Positions 571 to 49,280 of a stretch of DNA of 64,000 bases are shown one piece after another. The number at the start of each line of letters is the position of its first letter. Position 1 is the stretch's first letter. Both the position numbers and the translations under genes were made by a program. The notes below the pieces were generated by a model, which saw nothing but the letters and a program-made list of their open reading frames with translations, had not been told where the DNA came from and searched no databases. The stretch is from positions 9,838 to 73,837 of the forward strand of contig JAUWYR010000004.1 of assembly GCA_030615745.1 (NCBI GenBank), in the 5' to 3' direction. The stretch is from Candidatus Zixiibacteriota bacterium. GTDB taxonomy: Bacteria > Zixibacteria > MSB-5A5 > SM23-73-2.

Positions 571-2304
571 ATGAAATATTTGAATACAAAAGAATTGAAA
601 AAGCTAACTTTGACTCAGATACTCGAACTCAGCGCCAAGACCTACGCTGATCAAATATGCATGTACTATCACAAAGTGGATAAATTTGTTGGACTCAGCT
701 ATAGAGAGATAGATTTGAAATCAAAAGCTTTTGCCCGTGGTTTAATCGAGTTAGGAGTTGAAAAAGGGGATAGAATAGCAGTCTTATCAGAGAATAGACC
801 GGAGTGGGGAATATCATATTTTGGGATACTTTTAGCTGGAGGGATTGTTCTTCCTTTGGATCCTTGTTTGAAGATCTCAGAGCTCAAGCATATAATCCGG
901 GAAGCAAAAGCCAAGCTAGTGGTGACATCTGTAAAATTTATCTCAGACCTTGAGGAGATTTCAAATTCTTTAACTTTTCTTCAAAAAATAATCTGTATGG
1001 ATGATATGCCCCAAAAAAGCTCTGTTCCTTTTTCCCAGTTACTTAAAGTTAGAGGGGAATCTACAAAGGATGTGTTCTACCCGAAATTAGATGATATTGC
1101 TTCCGTGATCTATACCTCGGGCACTACCGGAAGCTCAAAAGGTGTGGTTTTGACTCATAAGAACATTATCTCCTGTATATGGGGTTTACAAAAGAGGATC
1201 GATTTTGATTCATCCGATAATTTTCTTTCGATTCTGCCTCTCCATCACGCTTTCGAGTGCACCTGCGGATTTTTGACCCCTATTTCAAAAGGTGCCAAGA
1301 TCACTTTCGCTCGCAGCCTGAAATCCAAAGAGATTTTAGAGGATATAAAAAATTCAGAGGCAACTATTATGTTAGGGGTCCCTTTGCTTTTTGAGAAGAT
1401 GCTTTCAGGTATTTTCAGAGCGGTAAAAAGGCGTCCTTTTTTTGTTCGGGCTCTTTTCAAAGCCAACTTAGGAGTGGTTAAATTTTTGAAGAAAGCTTTT
1501 AAGATAAATTTTGGGAAGGCTCTATTTAAAGGGTTACGCAAAAAGGCAGGACTGTCCAGCTTACGTCTATTTTTCTGTGGAGGAGCGCCTTTAGATCCAA
1601 AAGTTGCCCAGGGTTTTGATCTTTTGGGGATAAAGTTTTTGCAAGGATATGGTTTGACTGAGACCTCTCCGGTCTTAACAGTTAATCCCCAAAAAAATCC
1701 CAAACACGAATCTGTGGGGCTCCCTATCCCTGGAGTTGAGCTGAAGATTTTAAATCCGGATAAAAAAGGTATCGGCGAAATTGCTGCCAGGGGGGATTTG
1801 GTGATGGAAGGATATTATAACAACGAGAAGGCGACATCAGAAGTTTTTAAAGATGGCTGGTTTTTAACCGGGGATTCCGGGTGGGTGGACCGGAATGGAT
1901 ACTATTATGTTGTGGGTAGGTTAAAAAATGTGATCGTTACTCGGGCTGGCAAAAATGTCTATCCTGAGGAGTTAGAAAATGAATTAAACAAATCTCCTTT
2001 TATCTTAGAATCTTTAGTTTTAGGAAGACCTACTCCTGGGGGAAAAGGGGAGGAGCCCTATGCCATAATCGTTCCGGACTATGACTATTTTGACCAGGTA
2101 GCGGAAAAGGATGGGGTGGTCTTTGATGAGGAGAAGATAGAGATGACCATAAAATCTGAGATTGTGGAATGCTGTTCCAACATCGCAGATTACAAAAGGA
2201 TCAAAGGATTTAAAATAAGAGAGGAGGAGTTCGAGAAGACGACTACCAAGAAGATAAAAAGGTATCTTTATGAGCATAAGGTGGTGAGAGTGTCAGCGGA
2301 TTGA
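571..2304 (+). CDS. AMP-dependent synthetase/ligase (long-chain fatty acid-CoA ligase-like)
   Basis: AMP-binding signature YTSGTTGSSKGV, adenylate-forming core (GYGLTE, TGD, ...GRLK); start moved to ATG 571 with AAGG RBS. Confidence 0.8.
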   Translation: MKYLNTKELKKLTLTQILELSAKTYADQICMYYHKVDKFVGLSYREIDLKSKAFARGLIELGVEKGDRIAVLSENRPEWGISYFGILLAGGIVLPLDPCLKISELKHIIREAKAKLVVTSVKFISDLEEISNSLTFLQKIICMDDMPQKSSVPFSQLLKVRGESTKDVFYPKLDDIASVIYTSGTTGSSKGVVLTHKNIISCIWGLQKRIDFDSSDNFLSILPLHHAFECTCGFLTPISKGAKITFARSLKSKEILEDIKNSEATIMLGVPLLFEKMLSGIFRAVKRRPFFVRALFKANLGVVKFLKKAFKINFGKALFKGLRKKAGLSSLRLFFCGGAPLDPKVAQGFDLLGIKFLQGYGLTETSPVLTVNPQKNPKHESVGLPIPGVELKILNPDKKGIGEIAARGDLVMEGYYNNEKATSEVFKDGWFLTGDSGWVDRNGYYYVVGRLKNVIVTRAGKNVYPEELENELNKSPFILESLVLGRPTPGGKGEEPYAIIVPDYDYFDQVAEKDGVVFDEEKIEMTIKSEIVECCSNIADYKRIKGFKIREEEFEKTTTKKIKRYLYEHKVVRVSAD

Positions 2305-2385
2305 ACGGATTTAGCGGAGAAATTCGCAGCAGATGGAACAGATGAATTCACAGCAGATTAAGCAGATTGAACGGATAATTATTTT
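2304..2385 (+). repeat. left copy of ~100-nt direct repeat flanking the 2475-4409 gene (ACGGATTTAGCGGA...CAGATGGAACAGATGAATTCACAGCAGAT)
   Basis: strings GAACGGATTTAGCGGA and CAGATGGAACAGATGAATTCACAGCAGAT also at 4420-4520. Confidence 0.6.
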
Positions 2386-2441
2386 GTAGGGGCGGGGCTT
2401 GTTGAGCTTGGCGAAATCCCGATTTATCGGGGTCCCCGCCC
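2386..2441 (+). repeat. REP-like GC-rich hairpin element (GTAGGGGCGGGG...CCCCGCCC)
   Basis: near-identical copy at 25643-25697, rc-variant at 18298-18396, short forms at 4540-4562 and 25748-25773; GGGGCGGGG/CCCCGCCCC can pair. Confidence 0.65.
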
Positions 2442-2474
2442 TGAGGCAGAGAAATGTTTAACAAAGGGGAAAGG

Positions 2475-4409
2475 ATGAAAAAGATATTTGTTTTTGTGAT
2501 TTTGGCTTTGGTTCTTGTTGGTTTTGTTGGGGGGCAGGAAAGAGATACCCTCAAAGTTTCGCAACAAGTGGAGAGTTTGAAAGCTGAGATTGAGGAACTT
2601 AAAAAGGATGTGTATGAGAAAAGCATTGAGGGAATCAACAGAAGTATAAGCAATGTGAATACGGTTGCCACAGTCATAGGAGCAGTTGTTGTGTTACTTG
2701 GTATCATAGGCGGCATTACCCTGTGGAGGGCTGCTAAAGCTGAACGAGAACTTAGAACAGACGTGAAGGATACGAGGCGGGAACTCAGGGAGGACACAAA
2801 GGATATGAAACAGGAACTTAGAGAAGATATAAAGGAAATGAGGGGAAGAGTAGAAAGTGAATGCCAAAGAGTGGAGAATATGGCAGACAAAATTGCAACA
2901 GTAAAAGATGAGGTAGAAGAAGCTAAAAAGAACATGACAAAAATCCTTATAAAGGAAACCGAGAAAGCAGGTAAATCAAGAGAGGAGATAGAGGCTATAA
3001 AATCTTCGGCTGACAAAACGGTTAAAGAGATGGAAAGTAAGTATAAAGAAATGGTGGAACTTGTAGAAGAAGCGAAATCGATCTTACAGGACACCACAGA
3101 GCAAAAGAAAGCGGCTGAGGAAGCGGCAAGAAAAGCTGAAGCAGAAAGACTTTTTGCGGAAGCGTATTCGTTAGTTGAAAGAGGAAGGTTGGAGGAAGGC
3201 ATAGAAACGTATGAGAAAGTAATAAAGTTAACTCCTAAGGATGCAGATGCCTATAACAACTGGGGTGTTGCTCTTTCAGATTTAGCGGATTTGAAAGAAG
3301 ATGAGGCTTTATATCGAGAGTCTTTTGAGAAGTATGCTTTAGCAGTAAAATATAAAAAGGATTATCATGAAGCCTATTACAACTGGGGTCTAACTCTTAC
3401 TGACTTAGCAGATTTAGAGGAAGGTGAGGGTTTATACAGAGAATCTTTTAAGAAATATGCTTTAGCTGTGAAATACAAAAAGGATGATCATGAAACCTAT
3501 TACAACTGGGGTGTTGCTCTTTCAAATTTAGCGGATTTGAAAAAGGATGAGACTTTATATCGAGAATCTTTTGAGAAGTATGCTTTAGCAGTAAAATACA
3601 AAGAGGACGATCATTTAGTCTATAACAACTGGGGTTTAACCCTTTCTAAGTTAGCCGATTTTAAAAAGGATGAAAGACTTTATGGTGAATCTTTTGAGAA
3701 GTTTGTTTTAGCAGTAAAATACAAAGAGGATTTTGATGGAGCCTATTACAACTGGGGTAATGCCCTATCTGCCTTAGCAAAGTTGAAGAAGGATGAAACT
3801 CTTTATCGTAAATCTTTTGAGAAGTTTGCTTTGGCAGTAAAATACAAAGAGGATTTTCATGAAGCCTACAACAACTGGGGTTTAGCTCTTTCTGACTTAG
3901 CAGATTTAGAGCAAGATGAGGGTTTATACCAAGAATCTTTTAAGAAGTATGCTTTGGCTGTAAAATATAAAAAGGGTGATTATGAAACCTATTACAACTG
4001 GGGTGATGCTCTTTCAGATTTAGCGGATTTGAAAAAGGATGAGGCTTTATATCGAGAATCTTTTGAGAAGTATGCTTTAGCAGTAAAATACAAAAAGGAT
4101 TATCATGAAGCCTATTTCGACTGGGGTACTGTGCTATTAGAGTTTGGAAAACTAACAAAAGAAAAGCAGTTCTTTATACAGGCTTTAGAAAAAATTGAAA
4201 AAACTATTGAGATTAAAAAAGAAGATGTAGATGCTTGGTATAATAAAACCTGTGCTTACTCATTATTAAATGAAAAAGATAAAGCATTAGAATGTCTCAA
4301 AAAAGCAATTGAATTGGACCCATCGTTGAAAGAATATGCCAGAAAAGATAAAGATGAGGATTTCAAGTGGTTGTGGAAGGACGAGGATTTTAAGAAGTTG
4401 GTGGAGTAG
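2475..4409 (+). CDS. membrane-anchored repeat protein: N-terminal TM/signal, coiled-coil (RELREDTKDMKQELREDIKEMR), 8 x 40-aa TPR/Sel1-like repeats (YNNWGxALSDLADLKxDExLYRESFEKYALAVKYKxDxHEAY)
   Basis: repeat periodicity visible in protein and as ~120-nt near-identical DNA repeats 3240-4140; no specific family recognised. Confidence 0.6.
   Translation: MKKIFVFVILALVLVGFVGGQERDTLKVSQQVESLKAEIEELKKDVYEKSIEGINRSISNVNTVATVIGAVVVLLGIIGGITLWRAAKAERELRTDVKDTRRELREDTKDMKQELREDIKEMRGRVESECQRVENMADKIATVKDEVEEAKKNMTKILIKETEKAGKSREEIEAIKSSADKTVKEMESKYKEMVELVEEAKSILQDTTEQKKAAEEAARKAEAERLFAEAYSLVERGRLEEGIETYEKVIKLTPKDADAYNNWGVALSDLADLKEDEALYRESFEKYALAVKYKKDYHEAYYNWGLTLTDLADLEEGEGLYRESFKKYALAVKYKKDDHETYYNWGVALSNLADLKKDETLYRESFEKYALAVKYKEDDHLVYNNWGLTLSKLADFKKDERLYGESFEKFVLAVKYKEDFDGAYYNWGNALSALAKLKKDETLYRKSFEKFALAVKYKEDFHEAYNNWGLALSDLADLEQDEGLYQESFKKYALAVKYKKGDYETYYNWGDALSDLADLKKDEALYRESFEKYALAVKYKKDYHEAYFDWGTVLLEFGKLTKEKQFFIQALEKIEKTIEIKKEDVDAWYNKTCAYSLLNEKDKALECLKKAIELDPSLKEYARKDKDEDFKWLWKDEDFKKLVE
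3240..4140 (+). repeat. intragenic tandem repeats, ~120 nt period x ~8
   Basis: e.g. GATGAGGCTTTATATCGAGA(A/G)TCTTTTGAGAAGTATGCTTTAGCAGTAAAATA recurs at ~3300, ~3545, ~4025. Confidence 0.6.
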
Positions 4410-4539
4410 GTCAGCGGATTTATCAACGGATAGAACGGATTTAGCGGATGGATTCCCAACAGATGGAATAGATGGATTCACAGCAGATGGAACAGATGAA
4501 TTCACAGCAGATGAAACGGATTAAGCGGATGATTATATT
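4410..4539 (+). repeat. right copy of direct repeat flanking the repeat-protein gene, with internal CAGATGGAA(T/C)AGATG(G/A)ATTCACAG sub-repeats
   Basis: shares ACGGATTTAGCGGATGG and CAGATGGAACAGATGAATTCACAGCAGATGAAACGGAT with 2304-2385. Confidence 0.6.
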
Positions 4540-4562
4540 GTAGGGGCGGGGGGGTCCCCGCC
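4540..4562 (+). repeat. short REP-like hairpin GTAGGGGCGGGGGGGTCCCCGCC
   Basis: same ends as 2386-2441 element without the internal loop. Confidence 0.55.
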
Positions 4563-4608
4563 TATGGGTGGAGACAAGCTCCACTCCTACAAGAGAGGAA
4601 GGAAAAGT

Positions 4609-5811
4609 ATGCAGCCGAAAATTTACACGGTTACTGAAATCACCAGAGAGGTTAAAGATTTATTAGAGGAAAATATACCTCCTGTCTGGGTTGAGGGAGA
4701 AATCTCCAATTATACCTTGCACTCATCCGGACACCGTTATTTCTCCTTGAAAGATGAGAACTCACAGATAAGGTGCGTTTTCTGGAGATGGCAGGCTTTC
4801 TCCCTTTCTTTTGAGCCTGAGGATGGGATGAAAGTCATTGCCCTGGGAAATATAACAGTCTATGAGAAAGCAGGTCAATATCAGCTTTATGTGGAAAAGC
4901 TTCATCCCTTAGGAATCGGTAAATTAGAGCTCGAATTTCAAAGATTAAAAGAAAGACTTTATAAAGAGGGTCTTTTCGATGAACAACACAAAGTCCCCAT
5001 TCCAGAATTTCCACAAGTTATAGGAGTGGTGACCTCACCAACTGGCGCAGCCATCAGAGACATCGTGAAAATTATCCAAAGAAGGGCACCGGATGTTAAT
5101 ATAATATTAAATCCGGTCAGAGTTCAGGGCAAAGGGGCGAAAGAGGAGATCGCCCAGGCAATAAGAGATTTTAACCAATACAAAAAAGTCGACCTTTTAA
5201 TAGTTGGAAGGGGCGGAGGGTCTTTGGAAGACCTGTGGGCTTTTAATGAGGAGGTTGTTGTTAGAGCAATTTATGATTCGAAGATACCGATTATATCCGC
5301 AGTTGGTCATGAGATAGATTTCACCATATCAGATTTCGTAGCAGACTTAAGAGCACCAACACCTTCTGCTGGAGCTGAACTTGCAGTGAGGGACAGAACA
5401 GAGTTAATAAAAGAGATGAATTCACTTTTGAATAAATTAGTCAGTTTACAAAAATCGACCATTGATCTTTTTAAAAGAGAAGTTGAATCTTTAGTAAAAT
5501 CTTATGGATTTAAGCGTCCTTTGGATATGTTGACACAACTCTCCCAGAGAACAGATGAGCTTTACAAAGCTTTATCAAAAGGGGTAAAAAATTTCTTTGA
5601 ATTTAAGAAAAAATCCTTATCTTTGGTTTTGGGTAAGCTGAACGTCTTGTCACCCCTTTCTGTTTTTGAGAGGGGATTCAGCTTAACCCGCAAGTTGCCC
5701 GAGCTTATGATAATTAAGGATGCGGGTTTGCTTAAAAAAGATGATAGGGTAGAGGTCAAATTCCTTAAGGGGAAAATTGAGTCAAAGGTGGAGAAGATTG
5801 AAAAGGAATAA
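4609..5811 (+). CDS. xseA: exodeoxyribonuclease VII large subunit
   Basis: N-terminal OB-fold, GVVTSPTGAAIRDI and RGGGSLEDLWAFNEE motifs; followed by xseB. Confidence 0.9.
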   Translation: MQPKIYTVTEITREVKDLLEENIPPVWVEGEISNYTLHSSGHRYFSLKDENSQIRCVFWRWQAFSLSFEPEDGMKVIALGNITVYEKAGQYQLYVEKLHPLGIGKLELEFQRLKERLYKEGLFDEQHKVPIPEFPQVIGVVTSPTGAAIRDIVKIIQRRAPDVNIILNPVRVQGKGAKEEIAQAIRDFNQYKKVDLLIVGRGGGSLEDLWAFNEEVVVRAIYDSKIPIISAVGHEIDFTISDFVADLRAPTPSAGAELAVRDRTELIKEMNSLLNKLVSLQKSTIDLFKREVESLVKSYGFKRPLDMLTQLSQRTDELYKALSKGVKNFFEFKKKSLSLVLGKLNVLSPLSVFERGFSLTRKLPELMIIKDAGLLKKDDRVEVKFLKGKIESKVEKIEKE

Positions 5812-5814
5812 AAG

Positions 5815-6048
5815 ATGGGAAAAGAAAAAAGCTTTGAAGAGGCTTTAAAAAGATTAGAGGAGATTGTTCAAAAATTAGAGGGAGGAGACCTATCCCTGGA
5901 TGAGTCCCTTTCACTTTTTGAAGAGGGGATAAATCTTTCACGATTTTGCACAAAAAAACTTGCTCAGGCAGAGAAAAAGGTGGAGAAGCTTTTAAAATTG
6001 GGAGAGGAGTTCAAATTAGAACCTCTGGATCTTGAAGAAGAGGAGTGA
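5815..6048 (+). CDS. xseB: exodeoxyribonuclease VII small subunit
   Basis: 77 aa, [33 protein letters not shown] typical XseB. Confidence 0.85.
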
Positions 6049-6049
6049 A

Positions 6050-6910
6050 ATGGATTTCAAAAAATATCTTGAGGAAAAAAGAAAATTAGTTAACGAAACA
6101 CTCGACACTTTTCTGCCCGAAGAAAAAGAGAAGCCAAAGATTATTCATAAGGCCATGAGATATTCAGTCTTTGCAGGTGGTAAAAGATTAAGACCGATCT
6201 TAGCAATAGCGGTATTTGAGCTTTTAGGGGGTAAAGGGAAAAAAATTTTACCTTCTGCTTGTGCCTTAGAGCTTATCCACACCTATTCTTTGATCCACGA
6301 TGACTTACCTTGTATGGATGACGATGACTTAAGAAGGGGTAAGCCCACTTTGCACAAGGTATTTGGAGAGGGGATAGCTGTTTTAGCAGGTGATGCTCTG
6401 CACGCCTTAGCTTTTGAGCTTTTGATCTCTACCAAAAGACCAGATGTCGCCTTAGAAGTTGCAAAGGCTATCGGGACCAAAGGTATGATCGGAGGACAGG
6501 TTGCTGATCTTGAAGCTGAGGGAAAATCCAGAATAACGCTTCCTGAGGTCAAATATATCCACCAACACAAAACAGGAGCTTTGATAAAAGGATCGGTTAT
6601 GGCAGGTGCGCTCTTAGCAGATGCCTCTCCCAAAAAGCTTTCCAAATTATCTGAATTTGGTCAAAATATAGGCTTGGCTTTCCAGATAATAGATGATATA
6701 TTAGATGTGATCGGTAAAGAGAGATTAGTCGGAAAGAAAATCAAAAAAGATAAGCTCAAGGCTACTTATCCTAAACTTATAGGAGTGGAAAAATCAAAAA
6801 AAATGGCAGAAAAGCTCATCCAACAGGCTAAAGACCAGCTCGGTATATTTAAAAGGAATGGAGCTATCTTAAAGAATTTAGCTGACTTTGTGGTGAATCG
6901 GAGCTTTTGA
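6050..6910 (+). CDS. ispA: polyprenyl synthetase (farnesyl/geranylgeranyl diphosphate synthase)
   Basis: FARM DDxxD (LIHDDLPCMDDDDLRRGKPT) and SARM (FQIIDDILD); classic xseB-ispA-dxs order. Confidence 0.85.
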   Translation: MDFKKYLEEKRKLVNETLDTFLPEEKEKPKIIHKAMRYSVFAGGKRLRPILAIAVFELLGGKGKKILPSACALELIHTYSLIHDDLPCMDDDDLRRGKPTLHKVFGEGIAVLAGDALHALAFELLISTKRPDVALEVAKAIGTKGMIGGQVADLEAEGKSRITLPEVKYIHQHKTGALIKGSVMAGALLADASPKKLSKLSEFGQNIGLAFQIIDDILDVIGKERLVGKKIKKDKLKATYPKLIGVEKSKKMAEKLIQQAKDQLGIFKRNGAILKNLADFVVNRSF

Positions 6911-8853
6911 AGATGGAAAACCTTTTAGATAAAATCAACTCACCTGCGGACTTAAAAAAGATCCCTTTAGAAAAACTTCCCCAATTAGCTGAAAAGATAA
7001 GGGGAAAAATCATATCAGTTGTTTCAAAAAACGGAGGACACCTGTCCTCGAATTTAGGTGCGGTTGAACTGACGCTTGCCCTGCATTATGTGTTTGACTC
7101 GCCCAAGGATAAAATCGTCTGGGATGTGGGGCACCAGTGTTACACTCATAAGCTTTTAACTGGAAGAAAAGAGAAATTTGAAACCATAAGAAAATACCTT
7201 GGACTTTCAGGATTTCCAAAAAAGGATGAATCAGAGCACGATGTTTTCGATGTTGGACATGCCTCTACATCCATCTCCTCCGCTCTTGGATTAGTCTGCG
7301 CAAGAGATTTAAAAGGGGAGGACTTTTCTGTAATTGCTGTTATCGGGGATGGAGCATTAAGTGGTGGATTGTCCTTTGAGGGACTTAACAATGCTGGAGC
7401 GCAGAAAAAAGACTTAATCGTGATCTTAAATGATAACTCCATGTTCATATCAAAGAACGTGGGGGCTATGGCTAAATATCTGACTGACCTTTTGACTGAT
7501 GAGAAGTATAACAAGCTCAAAGCAGAAGTTTGGGAGCTTGTGGGTAAGTTTAAACGAAGAGATAAGATCAGAGCTATGGTTCAGCAAGTTGAGGAGTCAG
7601 TGAAGGGTTTTTTAGTTCCCGGGATTATATTTGAGAAATTAGGTTTCAGATATTTCGGACCTATAGATGGGCATCACCTTCCTCAATTGATCAAGACATT
7701 ATCCCATCTCAAGACTTTAAAAGGACCGATATTTCTTCATGTTCTGACTAAAAAAGGGAAGGGATATAAATATGCTGAGGAGGATGCCCCCCGTTTTCAT
7801 GGTATAGGCTCTTTTGACAAGGTAACTGGAAATTCCAACTCTGAGAAAGGAAGAAAGGCTTTCACCGATGTGTTCTCAGAAGCGATGGTGGAGATAGGAG
7901 AAAAAGATGAGAAAGTTGTTGCGATAACTGCTGCTATGTCTTTAGGCACCGGACTTTACTCTTTTGCCCAGAAGTTCCCACAAAGATTTTTCGATGTTGG
8001 AATAGCAGAACAGCATGGCGCCGCATTCTCTGCTGGCTTAGCTCGTCAAGGCTTAAAGCCTGTTTTTGCGGTCTATTCAACATTTTTGCAAAGGGCTTTT
8101 GATCAGGTTATTCATGATATCGCCTTGCAAAATCTTCCGGTGACTTTAGCAATAGATAGAGCAGGAATAGTTGGTGAGGATGGACCCACTCATCACGGCT
8201 TTCTTGATTTATCATATCTTCGTGGAATTCCCAATTTTGTGATTGCCTCCCCCAAAGATGGAAAGGAGCTAAAGGATTTACTTTACACCGCAGTCAACTG
8301 GAAAAAATCTCCTTTTGCATTGAGGTATCCGAGATGTCCTGTTCCTGATCAACCTGAAAAAGTCGGTATCGATCAAGAGAAAAGTTTTGGAAAGATAGAG
8401 GTGGGGAGCTGGGAGGTTTTGAGAGAGGGGAATGATATTTTGATCTTAGCCACAGGCTCTGTGGTTATTCCTTCGGTTGAGGCTTCTTTTAAACTCACAA
8501 AAGATTATATTGATGCCACTGTGGTAAATTGCAGGTTTATAAAACCTCTGGATGAGACCCTTCTTTTTTCACTTTTAAAAAAGCATGAATTTGTTTTAAC
8601 AGTTGAGGAGAATTCGCTTCTGGGTGGATTTGGCTCTGCGATTTTGGAGTTTATCCAAAAAAACAGCTTAAATAATATCCATTTGAAAATGCTGGGAATT
8701 CCGGATAAATTCATCCAGCATGGTAAAAGGGGTCTCCTTTTAAAAGATCTGGGGCTTGACCCTGATGGGATTTTTAAAGCTGTAAAAGAATTGTTAAAGA
8801 CAAAAAGGGGGAAATTAAAGTTTCAGATCTCAAAACAAAACAAATTAAAATGA
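6907..8853 (+). CDS. dxs: 1-deoxy-D-xylulose-5-phosphate synthase
   Basis: TPP-binding GHxSSxLG...GDGxxxGG, transketolase-like domains; contains in-frame 16-mer repeat at 8365-8380. Confidence 0.9.
   Translation: MKMENLLDKINSPADLKKIPLEKLPQLAEKIRGKIISVVSKNGGHLSSNLGAVELTLALHYVFDSPKDKIVWDVGHQCYTHKLLTGRKEKFETIRKYLGLSGFPKKDESEHDVFDVGHASTSISSALGLVCARDLKGEDFSVIAVIGDGALSGGLSFEGLNNAGAQKKDLIVILNDNSMFISKNVGAMAKYLTDLLTDEKYNKLKAEVWELVGKFKRRDKIRAMVQQVEESVKGFLVPGIIFEKLGFRYFGPIDGHHLPQLIKTLSHLKTLKGPIFLHVLTKKGKGYKYAEEDAPRFHGIGSFDKVTGNSNSEKGRKAFTDVFSEAMVEIGEKDEKVVAITAAMSLGTGLYSFAQKFPQRFFDVGIAEQHGAAFSAGLARQGLKPVFAVYSTFLQRAFDQVIHDIALQNLPVTLAIDRAGIVGEDGPTHHGFLDLSYLRGIPNFVIASPKDGKELKDLLYTAVNWKKSPFALRYPRCPVPDQPEKVGIDQEKSFGKIEVGSWEVLREGNDILILATGSVVIPSVEASFKLTKDYIDATVVNCRFIKPLDETLLFSLLKKHEFVLTVEENSLLGGFGSAILEFIQKNSLNNIHLKMLGIPDKFIQHGKRGLLLKDLGLDPDGIFKAVKELLKTKRGKLKFQISKQNKLK
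8365..8380 (+). repeat. GGTATCGATCAAGAGA 16-mer (dispersed repeat, in-frame in dxs)
   Basis: identical 16-mer at 8979-8994 (in nadK) and 10564-10579 (intergenic). Confidence 0.55.
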
Positions 8854-9734
8854 AAAGCATAGGTATAATCGCTAATCCTAAAAAGCCGAAGGTAAAAAAG
8901 ATAATAGAACAGATGATTTTGTGGGCTGAAAAAAATAAAATCGACTGCTATCTTTCCGATGAGCTAAAAGATTTGGTCGGTATCGATCAAGAGATTGGAA
9001 AAAAAGAAAAACTCTTACCTTTATCTTCACTCCCTGATAAATCAGAGGTTTTAATATCTTTGGGCGGGGATGGAACTATGCTCAAAACTGCGAGAACAGC
9101 GGGAGAAAAGTGTAATCCAATACTTGGAATAAATCTTGGAAGCTTAGGATTTATCACCGAGACAACGACAAACGATCTTGAGAAGACCTTAAATCGTTTG
9201 TTAAAAAAGGAATTCCAACTCGAAAAAAGAATGGTTTTGAAGGCGAAAATCGATTTGATGGACCAGCCATATGTTTTCGCTTTAAATGATGTAGTTTTGG
9301 ACAAAGGAGGTGTTGCCAGATTAATTCAGATGCACCTTTACGACAAGGATGAGTTCGTCTGTTCATATTCTGCTGATGGATTAATAATCTCCACGCCCAC
9401 CGGTTCAACCGCATATTCTTTAGCTTCAGGTGGACCGATAATAAATCCCAAAATAAACGCAATTATTGTTGCACCGATCTGCCCCCATACCCTTGCCTCC
9501 AGGCCAATCATCTTTTCAGAAAAAGGTAATTTGAAAATTGTTGTTGAATGCGACCAGAGAGATGCTCTGCTCACCATAGATGGGCAGATCGCCAAAACAT
9601 TAAAGTCTGGAACCTCGGTTTTAGTAAGCAAAGCAGAGCACACTGTTAATCTTATAAAATTTCCAGAATCTTCCTTTTACTCTGTTTTAAGAAAGAAGCT
9701 CCACTGGGGTGCAAGACCGAGGACAGAGGAGTAA
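8850..9734 (+). CDS. nadK: NAD+ kinase
   Basis: [34 protein letters not shown] motifs. Confidence 0.9.
   Translation: [294 protein letters not shown]
8979..8994 (+). repeat. GGTATCGATCAAGAGA 16-mer (in-frame in nadK)
   Basis: exact copy of 8365-8380. Confidence 0.55.
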
Positions 9735-9905
9735 TTTTTTTATAGAGGGAAAGATATAAAAAGGGGAAAGGACGCTTTTACAGGATAAAGAAAAATTAAA
9801 ACCGCAGTAAAGTTTAAAAAGCAAAATTAAAAAATTTAAAAAAATATTTATGAAAAGATGAAGATATTTTATGGTAATGCTCTGCAAAAGGTCAAAAAGT
9901 TCTAA

Positions 9906-10451
9906 ATGGCCATTAAAAAATCTGAAATTTTTCTAATTCCAAATCTTTTAACCCTTCTCCGCCTTATCTTACTCCCTTTTATCTTTTACTTCCTTTTAAA
10001 AAACACAACCAAAGATTTAATTTACGCCATAATACTTATGGGAATAGTATATTTTTCAGATATCTTCGATGGGTATTTAGCTCGAAAGCTGAATCAAAAG
10101 TCAGATTTCGGGAAGATTTTAGACCCGATTGTTGATAAAATAGTCATCTTTTGCTTTGGTTTATATGTTCTTTTTTATAAAGGATTTCCGCTCTGGGCTT
10201 TTGTGTTAATATTGATTAAAGACATTTCAATTCTTTCTGGTGGTCTATATCTTATCAAAAAGAAAAATGTAATTCCAACTCCTAATTTTTGGGGGAAATA
10301 CACTGCCTCAGTCTTAGGAGTAGTTTTGTTTTTGTATATACTGGAAATCGATTCTTTAAAAATTTTGGGTTTATGGATTGGTGTAGGAATGGTTCTGATT
10401 ACAATTTTTACCTATGTAAAACTTTTTATTCATAGCATGCAAAAAAGTTAA
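9906..10451 (+). CDS. pgsA: CDP-alcohol phosphatidyltransferase (PgsA-like)
   Basis: DG(x2)AR(x7)G(x3)D(x3)D motif DGYLARKLNQKSDFGKILDPIVDKI; multiple TM helices. Confidence 0.75.
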   Translation: MAIKKSEIFLIPNLLTLLRLILLPFIFYFLLKNTTKDLIYAIILMGIVYFSDIFDGYLARKLNQKSDFGKILDPIVDKIVIFCFGLYVLFYKGFPLWAFVLILIKDISILSGGLYLIKKKNVIPTPNFWGKYTASVLGVVLFLYILEIDSLKILGLWIGVGMVLITIFTYVKLFIHSMQKS

Positions 10452-13431: not shown

Positions 13432-16047
13432 ATGGAGAAGATAGGAACCCCATTGATGAATCAATATTGTAAAATAAAATCTCTGTATCCACAAGAGATT
13501 TTGTTTTTCAGAATGGGGGATTTCTATGAGATGTTCGGAGAGGACGCCAAGATCGCATCAAAGATTTTGGGTATAGCTTTAACTTCACGGGCACATGGAA
13601 AATCGGAAAAAGTTCCTTTAGCTGGTGTCCCTTATCATTCAGCTGAAAAATATATATCACAATTATTAAGGGCCGGAAAGAAAGTGGTTATCTGTGAGCA
13701 AACAGAGGACCCCAAAACCGCAAAAGGGATTGTTAAAAGAGAGGTGGTTGAGCTTATCACCCCGGGAACAATAACCATCGATAGCCTTTTTGACTCGGAT
13801 GAAAAAATTTTTTTAGCAAGCCTTACCTTTGATGAACAAAATGCTGGTCTGGCAGTTTTAGACCTTTCCACAGGCGAGTTCAAAGTTGAGGAGGATTCTT
13901 TTCAGAAAGTAGTGGAGAAAATAAACGCGATAAAGCCAAAGGAGATACTTCTGCCTCAAAGACTCTCTGAGAAAAAATCACTTGAGCTTGAAGATTTAAA
14001 AAATCAAGCGACCCTTACCTTTCTTGATGATTACAAGTTCAGCTATGATTATGCTTATCAAACCATCACCAGCCACTTCAAGACAGCATCTCTGGATGGC
14101 TTTGGGATCTCGGATTTAAACTTGGGAATCTCGTCTGCTGGAAGCATCCTTTCTTATCTTGAGCAGACCAAAAAGACTTTCCTTTTGCACATCAATAAGA
14201 TAACAAAGGCATCTTATGATGAGTGTATGTTTTTGGACTTCACCACCTTGAGAAATCTGGAGATATTTTCTCCTTTCAGCTCAACTGATTCAAAGGATTT
14301 TTCTTTTAAGAAAAATAGTCTATTCCACATTCTGAATAAGACCAAAACCGCGATGGGAGCAAGGCTTTTAAAGGAATGGTTGAAAGCTCCCCTTTATAAT
14401 GTGGAAAAGATAAAACAAAGGCAAAACTCAGTATCTGAGCTTTTGGAAAAAAGGGATAAAACGTTTGATCTTACAAAACTTTTAGACAAAATCCAGGATA
14501 TAGAGAGGCTTGCTGGAAAGCTCGGTTATGGTAAAGCCAATCCAAAAGACCTTGTCGCACTGGGTTTGTCTTTGAAAAATGTTCCGGAGATTAAAAATCT
14601 TTTAAAAGAGTTTAACTCCGCTCTTTTGAAAAACATAAAAGAAAAACTACCCGATACCTCTGAGATAGTCGATCTGATCCAATCCTCAATTGTGGATGAC
14701 CCTCCTTCGGTTTTAACTGAGGGTGGAATTATAAAAAAAGGATACAGCCAAAAGCTTGATGAGTTAAAAGAAAAGATAAAAACATCCAGGGATTGGATAG
14801 CCACCCTTCAACAGACCGAGAGGGAAAAAACAAAAATCCCTACACTTAAGGTTGGTTTTAACCGGGTGTTCGGATATTATATAGAGATCACCAAGCGCCA
14901 TCTTTCCAAGGTTCCAGAGGGGTATATACGAAAGCAGACTCTAATAAATGCTGAGAGATTTGTCACCGAGGAGTTGAAAAAAAGGGAAGAGATAATCTTA
15001 GGTGCTGAGGAGAAAATCTTTGAACTCGAGCATGATCTTTTTTTAGAGATAAGGTCTAAGGTTGCAAAAAAAATTAAGGATATTCAGAAAACCTCTGAAT
15101 ACTTAGCCACTTTAGATATCTTGTTAAGTTTTAAGGAGGTGGTTTTAAATTATCGTTATGTTCGTCCTGAAATCGATTTAAGTGATGATATAATAATCGA
15201 GGATGGGAGACATCCGATTCTTGAACATCTGCTCGAAAAAGGATTTGTTCCAAATGATACAATAATCAATTCAGACGAAAAGATTCACATCATAACCGGA
15301 CCGAATATGGCTGGAAAGTCAACCTATTTGAGGCAGGTTGGACTTATAGTGCTTTTGGCTCAAGTTGGCTGTTTTGTTCCAGCTAAGAAAGCAAAAGTAG
15401 GTCTGGTGGACAGAATATTCACCAGGGTGGGTGCCTTGGATAGTATCGCAACAGGCAAAAGCACATTTTTGGTGGAGATGAACGAAACAGCCAATATATT
15501 AAACAATGCCACCTCGAAAAGCTTAATCCTTTTGGATGAGATCGGTAAGGGAACATCAACTTTTGATGGGCTTTCCATTGCCTGGGCTACAACTGAGTAT
15601 ATCCACTATCATCCCAAGCTTTGTTCCAGGACTTTAGTTGCAACCCATTTCCACGAGTTAACTGAGTTAGCCAAACTTCTTCCAAAGGTAAGAAACTATC
15701 AGATAAAGGTTAAGGAATGGAAAGATGAGATAATATTTTTAAGAAAGATCGTCCCCGGAGGATGCGATGACTCATTCGGAATTTATGTGGCAAAATTAGC
15801 TGGAGTTCCAAAGGAGGTCCTGGAAAGGTCAAGGGAGATATTGTTGAAATTAGAAGGAGAGGAGCTTTCTTACAAGAGGGTTTCAAAACCAGGGGCTTTC
15901 TCGCAAAAAAAATCTTATCAGTTAAGTATTTTTTCAGCTAAGGATAACGAACTTGCTCAGGATTTGAAGAAAATTAATATAAATAAGTTGACACCTCTGG
16001 AGGCTTTGAATAAGTTGGAGGAGTTGAAGAGGAAAGCGGAAGAATAA
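13432..16047 (+). CDS. mutS: DNA mismatch repair protein MutS
   Basis: mismatch-binding N-term, Walker A GPNMAGKSTYLRQV, DEIGKGTSTFDGLSIAWA. Confidence 0.92.
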   Translation: MEKIGTPLMNQYCKIKSLYPQEILFFRMGDFYEMFGEDAKIASKILGIALTSRAHGKSEKVPLAGVPYHSAEKYISQLLRAGKKVVICEQTEDPKTAKGIVKREVVELITPGTITIDSLFDSDEKIFLASLTFDEQNAGLAVLDLSTGEFKVEEDSFQKVVEKINAIKPKEILLPQRLSEKKSLELEDLKNQATLTFLDDYKFSYDYAYQTITSHFKTASLDGFGISDLNLGISSAGSILSYLEQTKKTFLLHINKITKASYDECMFLDFTTLRNLEIFSPFSSTDSKDFSFKKNSLFHILNKTKTAMGARLLKEWLKAPLYNVEKIKQRQNSVSELLEKRDKTFDLTKLLDKIQDIERLAGKLGYGKANPKDLVALGLSLKNVPEIKNLLKEFNSALLKNIKEKLPDTSEIVDLIQSSIVDDPPSVLTEGGIIKKGYSQKLDELKEKIKTSRDWIATLQQTEREKTKIPTLKVGFNRVFGYYIEITKRHLSKVPEGYIRKQTLINAERFVTEELKKREEIILGAEEKIFELEHDLFLEIRSKVAKKIKDIQKTSEYLATLDILLSFKEVVLNYRYVRPEIDLSDDIIIEDGRHPILEHLLEKGFVPNDTIINSDEKIHIITGPNMAGKSTYLRQVGLIVLLAQVGCFVPAKKAKVGLVDRIFTRVGALDSIATGKSTFLVEMNETANILNNATSKSLILLDEIGKGTSTFDGLSIAWATTEYIHYHPKLCSRTLVATHFHELTELAKLLPKVRNYQIKVKEWKDEIIFLRKIVPGGCDDSFGIYVAKLAGVPKEVLERSREILLKLEGEELSYKRVSKPGAFSQKKSYQLSIFSAKDNELAQDLKKININKLTPLEALNKLEELKRKAEE

Positions 16048-16097
16048 TGAAGAATGACGGATGAAGAATGATTAATGACGAATGACGGATGACGAAT
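16041..16097 (+). repeat. GAATGA/ATGACGAAT iteron-like repeat block (left inverted repeat of 4HB cassette)
   Basis: 2x ATGACGAAT here vs 2x ATTCGTCAT at 16471-16500 and 18422-18452. Confidence 0.55.
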
Positions 16098-16472
16098 ATG
16101 GCGGTTTATAAAAAGTTTGAGGATTTGCCTGTGTGGATTTTGGCGAAGGATTTGGCGGTAAAAATATATCAGGTGAGCAAGGGAGAAAAATTTCGTAAGG
16201 ATTATGCTTTGGTTGACCAGATTCGAAGGGCATCTATTTCTATTTCGAGTAATATCGCTGAGGGGTTTGAAAGGGGATCGAAAAAAGAATTTATTCAATT
16301 TCTCTATATAGCCAAGGGTTCTTTAGGTGAAGTGAGAAGTCAATTGCAAGTTTGCTTTGAACTGGGTTATATGAATGAGCAAAACCTGAAAACTCTTTTA
16401 TTGCAGAGTTATGACCTCTCGAATCAATTAGGTGCTTTTATTTCATCAATTAAGAAGAGGATTAGAATTTAA
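16089..16472 (+). CDS. four-helix-bundle protein (TIGR02436 / 23S rRNA intervening-sequence protein family; Avd-like)
   Basis: KFEDLPVW...YQVSKGEKFRKDYALVDQIRRASISISSNIAEGFERGSKKEFIQFLYIAKGSLGEVRSQL is the hallmark of this family. Confidence 0.85.
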   Translation: MTNMAVYKKFEDLPVWILAKDLAVKIYQVSKGEKFRKDYALVDQIRRASISISSNIAEGFERGSKKEFIQFLYIAKGSLGEVRSQLQVCFELGYMNEQNLKTLLLQSYDLSNQLGAFISSIKKRIRI

Positions 16473-16522
16473 TTCGTCATCATTCATCAATCATTCGTCA
16501 TAATTTAAGGATGAAAAATAAG
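16460..16522 (+). repeat. 63-nt direct repeat, copy 1 (GATTA(G)AATTTAATTCGTCATCATTCATCAATCATTCGTCATAATTTAAGGATGAAAAATAAG)
   Basis: 62/63 identical to 18412-18474; includes mutL RBS and first four codons. Confidence 0.8.
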
Positions 16523-16562
16523 CTTATCATATTACTCGCAGTTGACAGGAGGTTGGTTAAAA

Positions 16563-18297: not shown

Positions 18298-18396
18298 GTA
18301 GGGACGGTCCTCGTGGCTGTCCGCCTAAGGATTCGGACAGGGACCCCCCGCCAGAGGCGGGGGATTTCGCTATGCTCAACAAACCCTGTCCTTACG
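18298..18396 (-). repeat. REP-like element, inverted-orientation variant
   Basis: rc contains GGGTTTGTTGAGCATAGCGAAATCCC matching GGGGTTTGTTGAGCGAAGCGAAATCCC of 25650-25676; CCCCCGCC...GGCGGGGG stem. Confidence 0.55.
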
Positions 18397-18411
18397 TAAA
18401 ACCAAAAAAAG

Positions 18412-18474
18412 GATTAAAATTTAATTCGTCATCATTCATCAATCATTCGTCATAATTTAAGGATGAAAAATAAG
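18412..18474 (+). repeat. 63-nt direct repeat, copy 2 (overlaps authentic mutL start)
   Basis: see 16460-16522. Confidence 0.8.
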
Positions 18475-25531: not shown

Positions 25532-25585
25532 GGATGAAAGTTTAAAATTAAAAATTTAAAGTTCAAAATTAAAAGAAACGGGTAT

Positions 25586-25780
25586 TAGAAAAGACAGGTT
25601 ATAGGTTATAGGTCATAGGTTGTAGGTGTTAGGGAAATAAATGTATGGGCGGGGTTTGTTGAGCGAAGCGAAATCCCGATTTATCGGGGTCCCCGCCTGA
25701 AAAAAACAGGTCATAGGTTATAGGTGGTAGGTGATAGGAAAATAAATGTAGGGGCGGGGTTTATCCCCGCCCGAGGAAAC
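25586..25780 (+). repeat. tandem duplication (~115 nt x2): (GGTTATAGG)n tract + REP-like GGGGCGGGG hairpin
   Basis: AGGTTATAGGTTATAGGTCATAGGTTGTAGGTGTTAGGGAAATAAATGTATGGGCGGGG vs CAGGTCATAGGTTATAGGTGGTAGGTGATAGGAAAATAAATGTAGGGGCGGGG. Confidence 0.6.
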
Positions 25781-44468: not shown

Positions 44469-44821
44469 AGGCAAAACCAGGGATTTTTGATGATTGATGA
44501 TTAATGAAGATTTTTAAATTGCGAGGTGAGTTTACATAATGTTTATTATAAGACCTTTTATGGTTCGCTTTATCTTGAGTTCTTAAAAGATAAAGTTCGC
44601 ATTCCTTCTTTTTTAGAGGGAAACTTTTGTTCGCTTTTTTTAGCCTGGTCAAATGGAAGAAATTTTAAAACCCAGTTCCCTGACGTTAGGAGGATTCCAT
44701 TATGAAGTCATTATCTGTAAAAGGAGCCGGCAGAGCTTCCCAGAAATCCCAGCCCACGTATGTCAAACTCTTAATGGAATGCGAACCTTTCAGGTTTGCC
44801 TTTCCTTATAGTTTTTCTTAA

Positions 44822-44890
44822 AAGTAAAGCTGAAGCTTTACACTCCATATCTCACCTTATAGATTTGGTTTTTTCAGAAATCTCTTATTT
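44822..44890 (+). repeat. repeat GTAAAGCTGAAGCTTTACACTCCA...TTTTTTCAGAAAT (copy 1)
   Basis: related copy at 49111-49185 (GTAAAGCTAAAGCTTTACACTCCA...TTTTTCTGAAAAG). Confidence 0.5.
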
Positions 44891-44911
44891 TAAGATTATG
44901 TGGGTTATTGA

Positions 44912-45148: not shown

Positions 45149-45232
45149 AAAATTTATCAAACACAAAAATTGGGATTACTAACTATCTTTGCAAACGTTT
45201 TTTATTTTTCAGCAAACCTCTCCCCTATCAGA

Positions 45233-45289
45233 CCTAAACTAAAACTTTAAGTCGAACGTCGGGTATGAAACCCGACGCTACGCTTAAAT
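45233..45289 (+). repeat. nested repeat, short form (CCTAAACTAAAACTTTAAGTC-GAACGTCGGGTATGAAA-CCCGACGCTACGCTTAAAT)
   Basis: see 44912-45148. Confidence 0.55.
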
Positions 45290-49185: not shown

Positions 49186-49280
49186 AACTATCCTAAATCT
49201 TTTATATTTTTAACCGTAATAAATGGGTGGGGTGGTGGGGTTCTAATACCTAATACCTACCACCTAACACCTAAAAGAAC

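What the first reader, a model, noticed from the sequence alone, without database searches (positions are those of the whole stretch)
2304..4562. Repeat-protein gene (8 x 40-aa units, coiled-coil, TM anchor) bracketed by ~100-nt direct repeats and REP hairpins on both sides
The left flank (2304-2385 + REP 2386-2441) and right flank (4410-4539 + REP 4540-4562) share long identical strings (GAACGGATTTAGCGGA; CAGATGGAACAGATGAATTCACAGCAGAT; ACGGAT(A/T)A...GTAGGGGCGGGG). Internally the gene carries eight ~120-nt repeats with very high nucleotide identity, implying recent homogenisation. Flanking direct repeats together with internal repeats suggest a recombination-prone contingency locus or a cassette acquired by repeat-mediated recombination. 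The protein type (YNNWG...LYRESFEKYALAVKYK units) is not one I can place. The right flank also contains a 15-nt periodic sub-repeat (CAGATGGAAxAGATGxATTCACAG).
Basis: seen in the sequence. Interest (0 to 1): 0.55.

Follow-up and report, generated by a model that had tools for sequence, protein, structure and literature searches.

The report
Hypervariable TPR gene between repeated spacers
A membrane-anchored TPR-repeat protein gene in a Zixibacteria genome has expanded its internal repeat array and differs sharply between close relatives; it lies between two copies of a conserved non-coding spacer ending in REP-type hairpins, so it is a recombination-prone variable locus and not a newly acquired cassette or an on/off switch.

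Summary
The gene (2475-4409) encodes a signal peptide, one TM helix, a long coiled coil, a TPR superhelix and a TPR end-of-group cap. The array has seven related 123-nt (41-aa) units that are 73-94% identical, plus one divergent terminal unit. It is not eight near-identical units. Both flanks are true homologues over about 95-130 nt. Each consists of RCNGAT nonamers and a 24-nt sub-repeat, followed by GTAG-tagged REP hairpins. The similarity therefore extends well beyond the hairpin.

The gene is not a recent cassette. The order acyl-CoA synthetase, TPR gene, xseA is conserved in four Zixibacteria clades. The array is extremely variable: orthologues carry 0, 1, 2 or 7 such units, or classical 34-aa TPRs instead. 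A strain 95% identical downstream (XseA 98%) carries a TPR protein only 32-41% identical, and homology is lost at the right flank. In two other lineages tandem TPR paralogues are each followed by the element (N genes, N+1 elements).

Best reading: this is an old, conserved, hypervariable locus, and its repeated spacers supply homology for allele replacement and duplication. The classic contingency-locus reading is not supported. The function of the spacer is unresolved.

The parts
571..2304 (+). Upstream neighbour: AMP-binding acyl-CoA synthetase. Its last codons (..VSAD, then stop) already lie inside the left flank element.
   Evidence: Pfam AMP-binding 5e-86. Same neighbour in L090, L092, L111, L112, L113 and L114.
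2293..2385 (+). Left copy of the flank element 'E': RCNGAT nonamers plus 2.0 copies of a 24-nt unit, then an AT-rich 9-mer.
   Evidence: Predicted unstructured as RNA.
2386..2441 (+). GTAG-tagged REP hairpin (GGGGCGGGG / CCCCGCCC) with a 36-nt insert (2398-2433) in its loop. Its position upstream of the TPR start is conserved in the orthologous loci.
   Evidence: Orthologues carry GTAGGGGCGGAG..CTCCGCCC at the same place.
2475..4409 (+). TPR-repeat membrane protein gene (644 aa).
2475..2537 (+). N-terminal signal peptide or anchor (aa 1-21).
   Evidence: Hydropathy. Conserved in the orthologues.
2655..2729 (+). Transmembrane helix (aa about 61-85), preceded by the conserved motif YEK.IEG.NRS.
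2751..3179 (+). Long helical or coiled-coil region (aa 93-235).
   Evidence: AF2 helices 93-165 and 169-235 at moderate confidence. DUF948-like match below threshold.
3249..4109 (+). Seven 123-nt (41-aa) extended-TPR units W1-W7.
   Evidence: TRF period 123/246. Identity matrix. TPR_10 32 bits against a cut-off of 27.5. AF2 pLDDT >95, with helices of 18 and 17 residues per unit.
4110..4232 (+). Eighth, divergent terminal 41-aa unit (W8). It is orthologous to the only unit of this kind in L112 and L111.
4233..4406 (+). Last canonical TPR plus the TPR end-of-group cap (..DEDFKWLWKDEDFKKLVE).
   Evidence: NCBIfam NF047558 70.8 bits against a cut-off of 32. TPR_1/TPR_8.
4410..4539 (+). Right copy of the flank element 'E', starting at the base after the stop codon. 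It contains the 24-nt tandem array at 4447-4521 (3.1 copies).
   Evidence: A shorter version is present in L001 and a related version in L112.
4540..4591 (+). REP doublet: a GTAG hairpin (4540-4562) and an inverted GTAG-type hairpin ending in CTAC (4566-4591).
   Evidence: Conserved in L001.
4609..5811 (+). Downstream neighbour: xseA (exonuclease VII large subunit), followed by xseB, ispA, dxs and nadK.

Best explanation
The region is an old, positionally conserved but hypervariable gene of Zixibacteria. It encodes a bitopic membrane protein. A short periplasmic N-terminal helix and one TM helix anchor a large domain made of a coiled coil, a TPR superhelix and a TPR end-of-group cap. I infer that this domain is cytoplasmic.

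In this genome the TPR array has grown by in-frame tandem duplication of a 41-aa 'long TPR' unit, partly in blocks of 2-4 units, to seven copies plus a terminal variant. This lengthens the binding superhelix. It does not switch the gene on or off.

The gene sits between two direct copies of a locus-specific, strand-specific non-coding element E. E is made of RCNGAT nonamers and a 24-nt minisatellite, and each copy is followed by GTAG-tagged REP hairpins. These copies are ancient duplicates of the spacer that separates the TPR gene from xseA.

Shown: the flank homology, the old age of the flank duplication, the variation in unit number, allele replacement between strains of about 95% identity with the homology break at E, and tandem paralogues with N+1 elements.

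Inferred: the roughly 100-nt E/REP copies act as portable homology for RecA-type recombination. That recombination would produce allele replacement, tandem duplication and potentially deletion of the TPR gene. Unequal recombination or slippage among the 123-nt units would produce the array length changes.
For: - Protein identity: Pfam TPR_11 at 3.9e-20 and other TPR models. TPR_10 matches the 41-aa units above its cut-off. PDB sequence hits to CTPR and OGT. The AF2 array has pLDDT >95, and Foldseek matches the OGT TPR domain at 1e-12. TPR_END_plus scores 70.8 bits.
- Synteny: the synthetase, TPR gene, xseA order holds in L090, L092, L111 and L112, with partial coverage in L113, L114 and L001.
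- Array variation: proteins of 306, 300, 308, 364, 389 and 644 aa carry 0, 0, 1, 1, 2(+1) and 7(+1) units. L093, L094 and L098 have 34-aa arrays. Within the L090 clade only the 5' and 3' ends of the gene align.
- Allele replacement: L001 is 95.4% identical to the window from 4514 to 10042, but the last 212 nt of its TPR gene are only 74.5% identical. The TPR protein is 32-41% identical against 98% for XseA.
- Flanks. E motifs occur only at this locus and only on the sense strand in 161 kb of Zixibacteria sequence.
- N+1 arrangement in L094 and L098.
- An IS630-like insertion sits in the left flank of L093.
- REP class: 7 of 22 perfect GC hairpins in the window carry GTAG or CTAC tags, P about 4e-8. 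This matches the GTAG REP superfamily (PMC3733652).
Against: - The left breakpoint of the allele replacement could not be seen. Contigs of relatives end in the flank or the REP.
- In the L090 clade the homology breaks lie inside the gene, not in E. E is therefore not the only recombination boundary.
- L111 has no E and L112 has E only on the right. The bracket is not universal.
- E is conserved across clades whose xseA is only about 70-74% identical. This fits selection for a function of its own as well as, or better than, a passive role as homology.
- No read-level or population data exist for unit number.
- The exact 644-aa product is not on record in any other assembly, so the copy number rests on this one assembly.
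Confidence: 0.55

Rival explanations
1. The flank element E plus REP is mainly a functional intercistronic RNA or regulatory module in a co-directional operon. It could be an unstructured, GGA/CNGAT-rich protein-binding platform followed by REP hairpins that set mRNA 3' ends, stability or translation of the neighbouring cistrons. Under this reading it appears on both sides of the TPR gene because each junction needs it, and recombination is incidental.
For: - E always starts 0-5 nt after a stop codon and is always on the sense strand.
- It is conserved between clades whose xseA is about 70-74% identical. For example, a 19-nt exact match GATGGATTCCCAACAGATG is shared between the window and L112.
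- The minisatellite part is predicted unstructured, while the REPs fold stably.
- E_right has 10 GGA and 10 CNGAT motifs in 130 nt, 3-fold and 16-fold over background.
- A nearly identical nonamer triplet, CAACGGATTAAACGGATTAAACGGATTATG, sits directly before start codons in four unrelated IMG/VR contigs.
- Heptamer arrays upstream of start codons have been proposed as sites for post-transcriptional regulators (PMC4679880).
Against: - There is no Rfam match, and the fold has no significant z-score.
- L111 lacks E altogether and L112 lacks the left copy.
- Many nonamers have AGA or TGA instead of GGA.
- No csrA-like gene is in the window.
- No expression data exist.
Confidence: 0.3
2. E is the recognition site of a site-specific recombinase. 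[TPR gene + E] would then be an excisable and insertable cassette, working like an integron cassette without being one. This would explain the N+1 arrangement and the allele swapping.
For: - N genes with N+1 elements in L094 and L098.
- The homology break at E between the window and L001.
- In L094 and L098 the element is a roughly 70-nt imperfect palindrome placed right after the stop codon, as attC sites are.
- In IMG/VR contig L123 the same modules occur as alternating direct and inverted copies in a 700-nt spacer of a polysaccharide locus, an arrangement that resembles invertible regions.
Against: - No recombinase lies next to any of the loci.
- There are no integron core sites at the boundaries.
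- The window's E is not palindromic.
- The paralogues between elements are old and divergent.
- Orthologous E copies are more similar than the paralogous ones.
Confidence: 0.08
3. One reading: a recently acquired cassette, or a classic contingency locus whose near-identical repeats slip at high frequency.
For: Flank direct repeats and internal tandem repeats are present.
Against: - Synteny is conserved in four clades.
- GC content is like the surroundings, 0.39 against 0.38.
- Units are 73-94% identical and each is 3x41 nt long.
- The flank duplication is older than the strain splits.
Confidence: 0.05
4. The seven-unit array, or its copy number, is an assembly artefact.
For: - The exact protein is not on record elsewhere.
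- Short-read contigs from the same strain stop in the left flank (L089 ends at window 2356) and resume only at 4750 (L002).
Against: - The units differ at 7-33 positions each, which is enough to assemble them.
- The reading frame is intact throughout.
- AF2 gives a regular superhelix.
- Orthologues with 1-3 units of the same sequence type exist.
Confidence: 0.07

Closest known systems
GTAG-tagged REP elements, REP doublets (REPINs) and BIME-like mosaics (Di Nocera et al. 2013, PMC3733652; Nunvar et al. 2010, PMC2817692)
   Same: - Short GC-rich palindromes carry an unpaired GTAG at one end.
- There are several copies in intergenic spacers, located downstream of co-directional genes.
- Pairs occur in inverted orientation (4540-4591).
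- Relatives carry genome-specific stem variants with compensatory changes (GGGGCGGGG vs GGGGCGGAG).
   Different: - No RAYT gene was seen in the window.
- The genome-wide copy number is unknown.
- Many different stems share the GTAG tag.
- Here the REPs are coupled to a locus-specific minisatellite (E) that is not part of described REP families.
TPR proteins with extended units (Pfam TPR_10 of 42 aa; plant Tom20-type TPR, PF06552) and the 'TPR end-of-group' cap (NF047558)
   Same: - Helix-turn-helix repeats form a superhelix.
- The consensus is AY.NWG.AL..L...ESFEKYALAVKYK.
- The same 41-aa units occur in hundreds of proteins, where they are fused to SIR2_2, MBL-fold, ParA-like or AAA domains.
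   Different: - The N-terminal module here is a signal peptide, a TM helix and a coiled coil, not an enzyme.
- TOM20_plant scores below its cut-off.
- There is no PADLOC defence-system match.
Repeat-number-variable surface or scaffold proteins, and contingency loci
   Same: In-frame tandem units vary in number between strains.
   Different: - Units are only 73-94% identical.
- The protein's repeat domain is inferred to be cytoplasmic.
- There is no frame switching.
- Whole alleles, not only copy number, differ between close strains.
Intergenic short-period direct repeats: TAACTGA heptamers of Beggiatoaceae, Cyanobacteria and Bacteroidetes (MacGregor 2015, PMC4679880); cyanobacterial STRR heptamers (from my own knowledge)
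   Same: These are arrays of 7-9-nt units in spacers, often just upstream of start codons and strand-specific. Post-transcriptional regulators have been proposed for them.
   Different: - The unit here is a 9-mer (RCNGAT + 3) combined with a 24-nt unit.
- The element is locus-specific in 161 kb of Zixibacteria sequence rather than dispersed.
- It is duplicated on both sides of one gene.
Integron gene cassettes (ORF + attC)
   Same: A recombination-site-like element lies directly after each ORF, giving N genes with N+1 elements. The element is palindromic in some lineages.
   Different: - No integrase is present.
- There are no R''/R' core sites.
- The locus is chromosomal, ancient and syntenic.

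Membership tests
TPR repeat proteins (Pfam clan TPR) | Sequence match to TPR models above the curated cut-off | tested here: met
   TPR_11 scores 71.7 bits against 26.8, and TPR_8, TPR_1 and TPR_2 are above cut-off. TPR_10 scores 32.0 against 27.5 on units W1-W4 alone.
TPR repeat proteins (Pfam clan TPR) | Antiparallel helix pairs stacked into a superhelix | tested here: met
   AF2 gives pLDDT >95 for residues about 230-620, with 18+17-residue helix pairs per 41-aa unit. Foldseek matches the OGT TPR domain at E 1e-12 and CTPR at TMt 0.77. This is a prediction, not an experiment.
Plant Tom20-type TPR (PF06552) | Score above the Pfam gathering threshold | tested here: not met
   16.2 bits against 20.6, and only on the last units. 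No hit at E<=0.1 on the whole protein.
TPR end-of-group domain (NCBIfam NF047558) | C-terminal 56-residue cap above cut-off | tested here: met
   70.8 bits against 32, residues 587-644. Also met in P0073 and in the L112 protein.
GTAG-tagged REP | GC-rich palindrome with an unpaired GTAG (or CTAC) tag | tested here: met
   Tagged hairpins at 2386, 4540, 4566-4591(inv), 25643 and 25748. In the window 7 of 22 perfect GC hairpins are tagged, P about 4e-8.
GTAG-tagged REP | High copy number in the genome (tens to hundreds) | not testable with these tools
   Only 64 kb is available. It holds 3 exact copies and 1 near-exact copy of the GGGGCGGGG type.
GTAG-tagged REP | Associated RAYT (Y1 transposase) gene | tested here: inconclusive
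   Ten small or unassigned ORFs of the window were scanned and none was Y1_Tnp. The rest of the genome is unseen.
Contingency locus (repeat-mediated phase variation) | Near-identical short repeats whose gain or loss shifts the frame or the promoter spacing | tested here: not met
   Units are 123 nt (3x41) and 73-94% identical.
Contingency locus (repeat-mediated phase variation) | Length polymorphism within a population | not testable with these tools
   No reads are available. Variation between genomes is shown.
Integron cassette | attC with RYYYAAC / GTTRRRY cores and a nearby intI | tested here: not met
   No core sites at the flank boundaries, and no integrase among the ORFs next to any locus.
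Known anti-phage defence systems (PADLOC) | Significant match to a defence protein model | tested here: not met
   Only weak coiled-coil matches, E >= 2e-4 to ZorA/PbeC.
Known RNA families (Rfam 15) | Covariance-model match on the flanks | tested here: not met
   No match at E<=1 in 2250-4650. Only tRNAs in the whole window.

The most novel reading that the evidence does not exclude
The element E (RCNGAT nonamers plus the CCCA-CAGATGG..ATTCACAG module) belongs to an undescribed family of strand-specific gene-junction elements, shared by FCB-group bacteria and some phages. In Zixibacteria it would mark the boundaries of an exchangeable TPR 'cassette'. It could act as a recombination site, or as a conserved RNA-level regulatory platform, and in either case it would keep a hypervariable gene embedded in a housekeeping operon.
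Probability: 0.12. Interest if true: 0.65.

Novelty: new variant of a known kind. Interest (0 to 1): 0.4.

Why it matters
The finding gives a concrete, bounded example, in an uncultivated phylum, of a gene that stays fixed in position inside a housekeeping gene string while its content turns over quickly. The turnover includes unit number, unit type and whole alleles. Repeated non-coding spacers and REP hairpins sit at its borders. If the spacers prove to be the recombination substrate or a regulatory element, they would add a new kind of gene-junction element to the REP/BIME repertoire. They would also provide a handle for finding other variable loci in Zixibacteria and related genomes. The same 41-aa TPR units are fused to SIR2 and other conflict-type domains elsewhere, which hints at a role in partner or ligand recognition under diversifying pressure. 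That role is not shown here.

Tried and rejected
- **Replication origin or DnaA-box cluster.** ATTCACA resembles some DnaA boxes, but GC skew is positive throughout and does not switch near 2-5 kb.
- **Known RNA family.** None matched.
- **Structured RNA in E.** Fold z-scores were -0.2 and -1.7, and only the REPs pair.
- **Coding potential of the flanks.** The 62-aa ORF at 4336-4524 is a by-product of the repeat. The frame that continues the synthetase contains stops.
- **Import of the 41-aa units from a P0001-type gene.** Nucleotide identity is only about 67%.
- **Defence-system membership.** None found.
- **CsrA sponge.** No csrA-like ORF is in the window, and many units lack GGA. This remains only a weak sub-hypothesis.
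- **Integron attC.** No core sites were found.
- **Ongoing concerted evolution of the two flanks.** Orthologous flanks are 91% identical against 84% for the paralogous pair.
- **Tandem paralogy as the explanation of the second bracketed gene (KAP NTPase / mutL).** The two proteins are unrelated.
- **Exact-protein look-ups of the TPR product.** Nothing was on record for either start codon.
- **Left breakpoint of the allele replacement.** Contigs of relatives end in the flank or the REP.
- **Isolated-phage database search for the nonamer triplet.** No real hit was found.
- **Full-text literature search for the motif.** No paper was found.

Full report
**What is there**

The window comes from a Zixibacteria genome. 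Its XseA is 82% identical to that of candidate division Zixibacteria SM23_73_2, and several Logan and NCBI contigs are 96-100% identical to the window DNA. The reported region holds one gene. The orthologues share the RBS and the N-terminus MKK(I/L)FVFGIL, which places the start at 2475. The gene lies between an AMP-binding acyl-CoA synthetase (571-2304) and xseA (4609-5811), and all three run in the same direction.

**The protein**

- Two hydrophobic segments are present, at aa 1-23 and about 60-85. Long helices follow.
- Pfam finds TPR_11 (3.9e-20) and other TPR models.
- TPR_10, a 42-aa model, matches the repeated units alone above its cut-off.
- PDB sequences of consensus TPR proteins and of OGT match.
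- AlphaFold2 predicts the array at pLDDT >95, with an 18-residue and a 17-residue helix per 41-aa unit. Foldseek places it with the OGT TPR superhelix at E 1e-12.
- The last 56 residues are the 'TPR end-of-group' cap, NF047558 at 70.8 bits.
- TOM20_plant, which annotates many homologues, stays below threshold here.
- No defence-system model matches.

From the signal peptide, the single TM helix and the positive residues after it, I infer that the coiled coil and the TPR domain are cytoplasmic. This is not shown.

**The internal repeats**

TRF gives period 123 nt (7.1 copies, 78% matches) and also 246 nt. In register there are seven related units, W1-W7 (3249-4109), and a divergent terminal unit, W8 (4110-4232). 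Nucleotide identities among W1-W7 range from 73 to 94%. W1/W7 (94%), W3/W7 (93%) and W2/W6 (88%) are the youngest pairs. W8 is about 50-56% identical to the others. Differences between units are at least as often non-synonymous as synonymous. The array is therefore a mixture of older and younger in-frame duplications, partly in blocks of 2-4 units (offset 492 nt). It is not a freshly homogenised set.

**The flanks**

- The left flank (2293-2385) and the right flank (4410-4539) align end to end, and the right one carries one extra 24-nt unit.
- The best gapless segments are 84% and 89% identical over 75-76 nt.
- A 29-mer is identical in both flanks and is never seen in shuffles.
- Each flank consists of nonamers of the form NNARCRGAT, plus a 24-nt unit (CAGATGGAA + CAGATGAATTCACAG), plus an AT-rich 9-mer. 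I call this element E.
- E is followed by a GTAG-tagged GC hairpin.
- On the right there is a second, inverted hairpin ending in CTAC, so GUAG and CUAC can pair.
- On the left the hairpin loop holds a 36-nt insert.
- E itself is predicted unstructured. Nothing in Rfam matches.

**The hairpins are REPs**

GTAGGGGCGGGG occurs at 2386, 4540 and 25748, with a one-mismatch copy at 25643. Of 22 distinct perfect GC-rich hairpins in the window, 7 carry a GTAG or CTAC tag, against an expected 0.35 (P about 4e-8). This is the signature of the GTAG REP superfamily, which lies mostly downstream of co-directional genes and often occurs in inverted pairs (PMC3733652). No RAYT gene was found among ten ORFs scanned. 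The rest of the genome is unseen.

**Relatives: the gene is old and its content is not**

Exact-protein and pattern searches recovered the locus from four clades. The order synthetase, TPR gene, xseA, xseB, ispA, dxs, nadK is kept. The N-terminal anchor and the C-terminal cap are conserved, but the middle is not:

| Locus | Protein length | Array |
|---|---|---|
| L112 | 306 aa | no W-type unit |
| L096 | 300 aa | no W-type unit |
| L097 | 308 aa | one |
| L111 | 364 aa | one |
| L090 / L092 | 389 aa | two plus a terminal variant |
| Window | 644 aa | seven plus one |
| L093, L094, L098 | 508, 471, 489 aa | classical 34-aa TPRs instead |

Within the L090 clade xseA is about 86-93% identical, yet only the first few hundred nucleotides (about 300-800) and the last 200-300 nt of the TPR gene align.

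The most telling comparison is with L001. It is 95.4% identical to the window from 4514 to 10042, and its XseA is 98% identical. The last 212 nt of its TPR gene are only 74.5% identical, and its TPR protein is 32-41% identical. Point mutation cannot produce that contrast. The allele was replaced, and on this side homology is lost in E.

**Relatives: the flanks**

- E follows the synthetase stop codon in L113 (synthetase 97% identical; E 91% identical to the window's left copy) and in L114 (77%).
- E, or parts of it, together with REPs, flanks the gene on both sides in L090, L092 and L096.
- L112 has E only on the xseA side, and L111 has none.
- In L094 and L098, two tandem, divergent TPR paralogues are each followed by a related element, with one more copy in front, giving N genes and N+1 elements.
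- In L093 an IS630-like transposase sits in the left flank.
- In 161 kb of Zixibacteria sequence the E motifs occur only at this locus and always on the sense strand.
- The orthologous left copies (91%) are more alike than the window's two copies (84%). The duplication therefore predates these strains, and there is no sign of ongoing homogenisation.

**Interpretation**

The 'recent cassette' and 'phase-variable contingency locus' readings do not fit. The gene is ancient at this position, the units are in frame and diverged, and the flank duplication is old. What does fit is a hypervariable gene held in a conserved gene string. Array length changes by unequal recombination or slippage among the units. 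Whole or partial alleles are replaced by recombination, and the roughly 100-nt E/REP copies are available as homology.

The direct evidence for a role of E is limited to three points: the one visible break at E, the N+1 pattern, and tandem duplication in two lineages. The other side of the replacement could not be seen, because contigs of relatives end in the repeats. In the L090 clade the breaks are intragenic.

A serious rival is that E is conserved for a function of its own at gene junctions. It begins right after stop codons, is strand-specific, and is kept across clades whose xseA is about 70-74% identical. An almost identical nonamer triplet sits directly in front of start codons in four unrelated IMG/VR contigs, and both E modules recur in a mosaic spacer of a polysaccharide locus. 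I could not discriminate between a protein-binding RNA platform, a DNA site and a passive repeat.

**Caveats**

The seven-unit count rests on one assembly. The exact protein is absent from other assemblies, and short-read contigs of the same strain break at the flanks. Structure and topology are predictions. No expression or population data were available.

**Verdict**

It consists of a TPR protein of a known kind with an expanded array, GTAG REPs of a known kind, and a locus-specific repeated spacer that I could not match to any known family or published description. Interest is moderate.

Noticed in passing
window 16452-16531 and 18404-18483 (gene 16542-18287): A second gene bracketed by long direct repeats. 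An 80-nt repeat (93% identical) contains a heptamer array, the RBS and the first five codons (MKNK). It flanks a KAP P-loop NTPase with pentapeptide repeats, inserted between mutS-like and mutL-like genes. The NTPase and MutL are unrelated, so this is not tandem paralogy.
   Followed up: partly
window 16042-16097, 16089-16472, 16472-16501: A 23S-rRNA-IVP / four-helix-bundle gene is flanked by inverted arrays of AATGACG-type heptamers. The same heptamers occur in the left flank of the TPR locus in L090 and L092, so these arrays behave as a dispersed repeat.
   Followed up: partly
window 25537-25775; 49243-49274; 49380-49610: Spacers around tRNA genes carry other heptamer arrays (AGGTTAT, CTAATAC, ACAGTAA/ACTGT-type). 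After tRNA-Arg two of them are each followed by AAATAAAT and a GTAGGGGCGGGG REP. This is the same 'short-period repeat + AT-rich 9-mer + REP' grammar as the finding's flanks. Compare the TAACTGA repeats of PMC4679880.
   Followed up: no
window 2398-2433, 25655-25690, 18298-18396: A 36-nt module (YTTGTTGAGCnnnGCGAAATCCC plus a small hairpin) sits inside the loop of two GGGGCGGGG REPs. It also occurs reversed inside a composite GTAGGGAC...GTCCTTAC element. REP-type elements are therefore nested in one another.
   Followed up: no
L118-L121 (IMG/VR contigs), e.g. L120 1279-1308: The nonamer triplet CAACGGATTAAACGGATTAAACGGATT lies directly upstream of an ATG start codon in four viral contigs with unrelated flanking genes. 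In one of them the upstream ORF ends at the TAA of the first nonamer. The triplet is 28/29 identical to the right flank of L092 (my count; motif contexts).
   Followed up: partly
L123 4200-4890: A 700-nt spacer in a glycosyltransferase / O-antigen-polymerase-like locus, labelled viral in IMG/VR, is a mosaic. It holds alternating direct and inverted AACAACGGATTAAGCGGATTAAACGGATT modules, CCCACAGATGG..CAGATTTACACAG modules and 45-nt repeats. These are the same two module types as in element E.
   Followed up: partly
L093 21-1099: An IS630-like transposase, read as two ORFs, is inserted in the left flank of the orthologous TPR locus and truncates a REP doublet there. The IS630 assignment is my reading of the ORFs, with no family search.
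   Followed up: no
homologues P0001, P0017, P0020, P0031 and others: Nearly the same 41-aa TPR units are fused in other phyla to SIR2_2 (Prevotella and Porphyromonas 'SIR2 family protein', with ThsA-like matches in PADLOC), to an MBL-fold / anti-Pycsar-like domain beside a PemK toxin and an integrase, and to ParA-like and AAA/NACHT domains.
   Followed up: partly
window 49682-50302 (-): An ORF with only a recombinase zinc-ribbon domain abuts tRNA-His. It may be the remnant of an integrated element.
   Followed up: no
window 44469-45509: A 1-kb spacer upstream of smpB is packed with different hairpins, several of them CTAC-tagged (45057-45078, 45257-45277). ARAGORN reported no tmRNA in the window, and Rfam at gathering threshold matched only tRNAs.
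   Followed up: no
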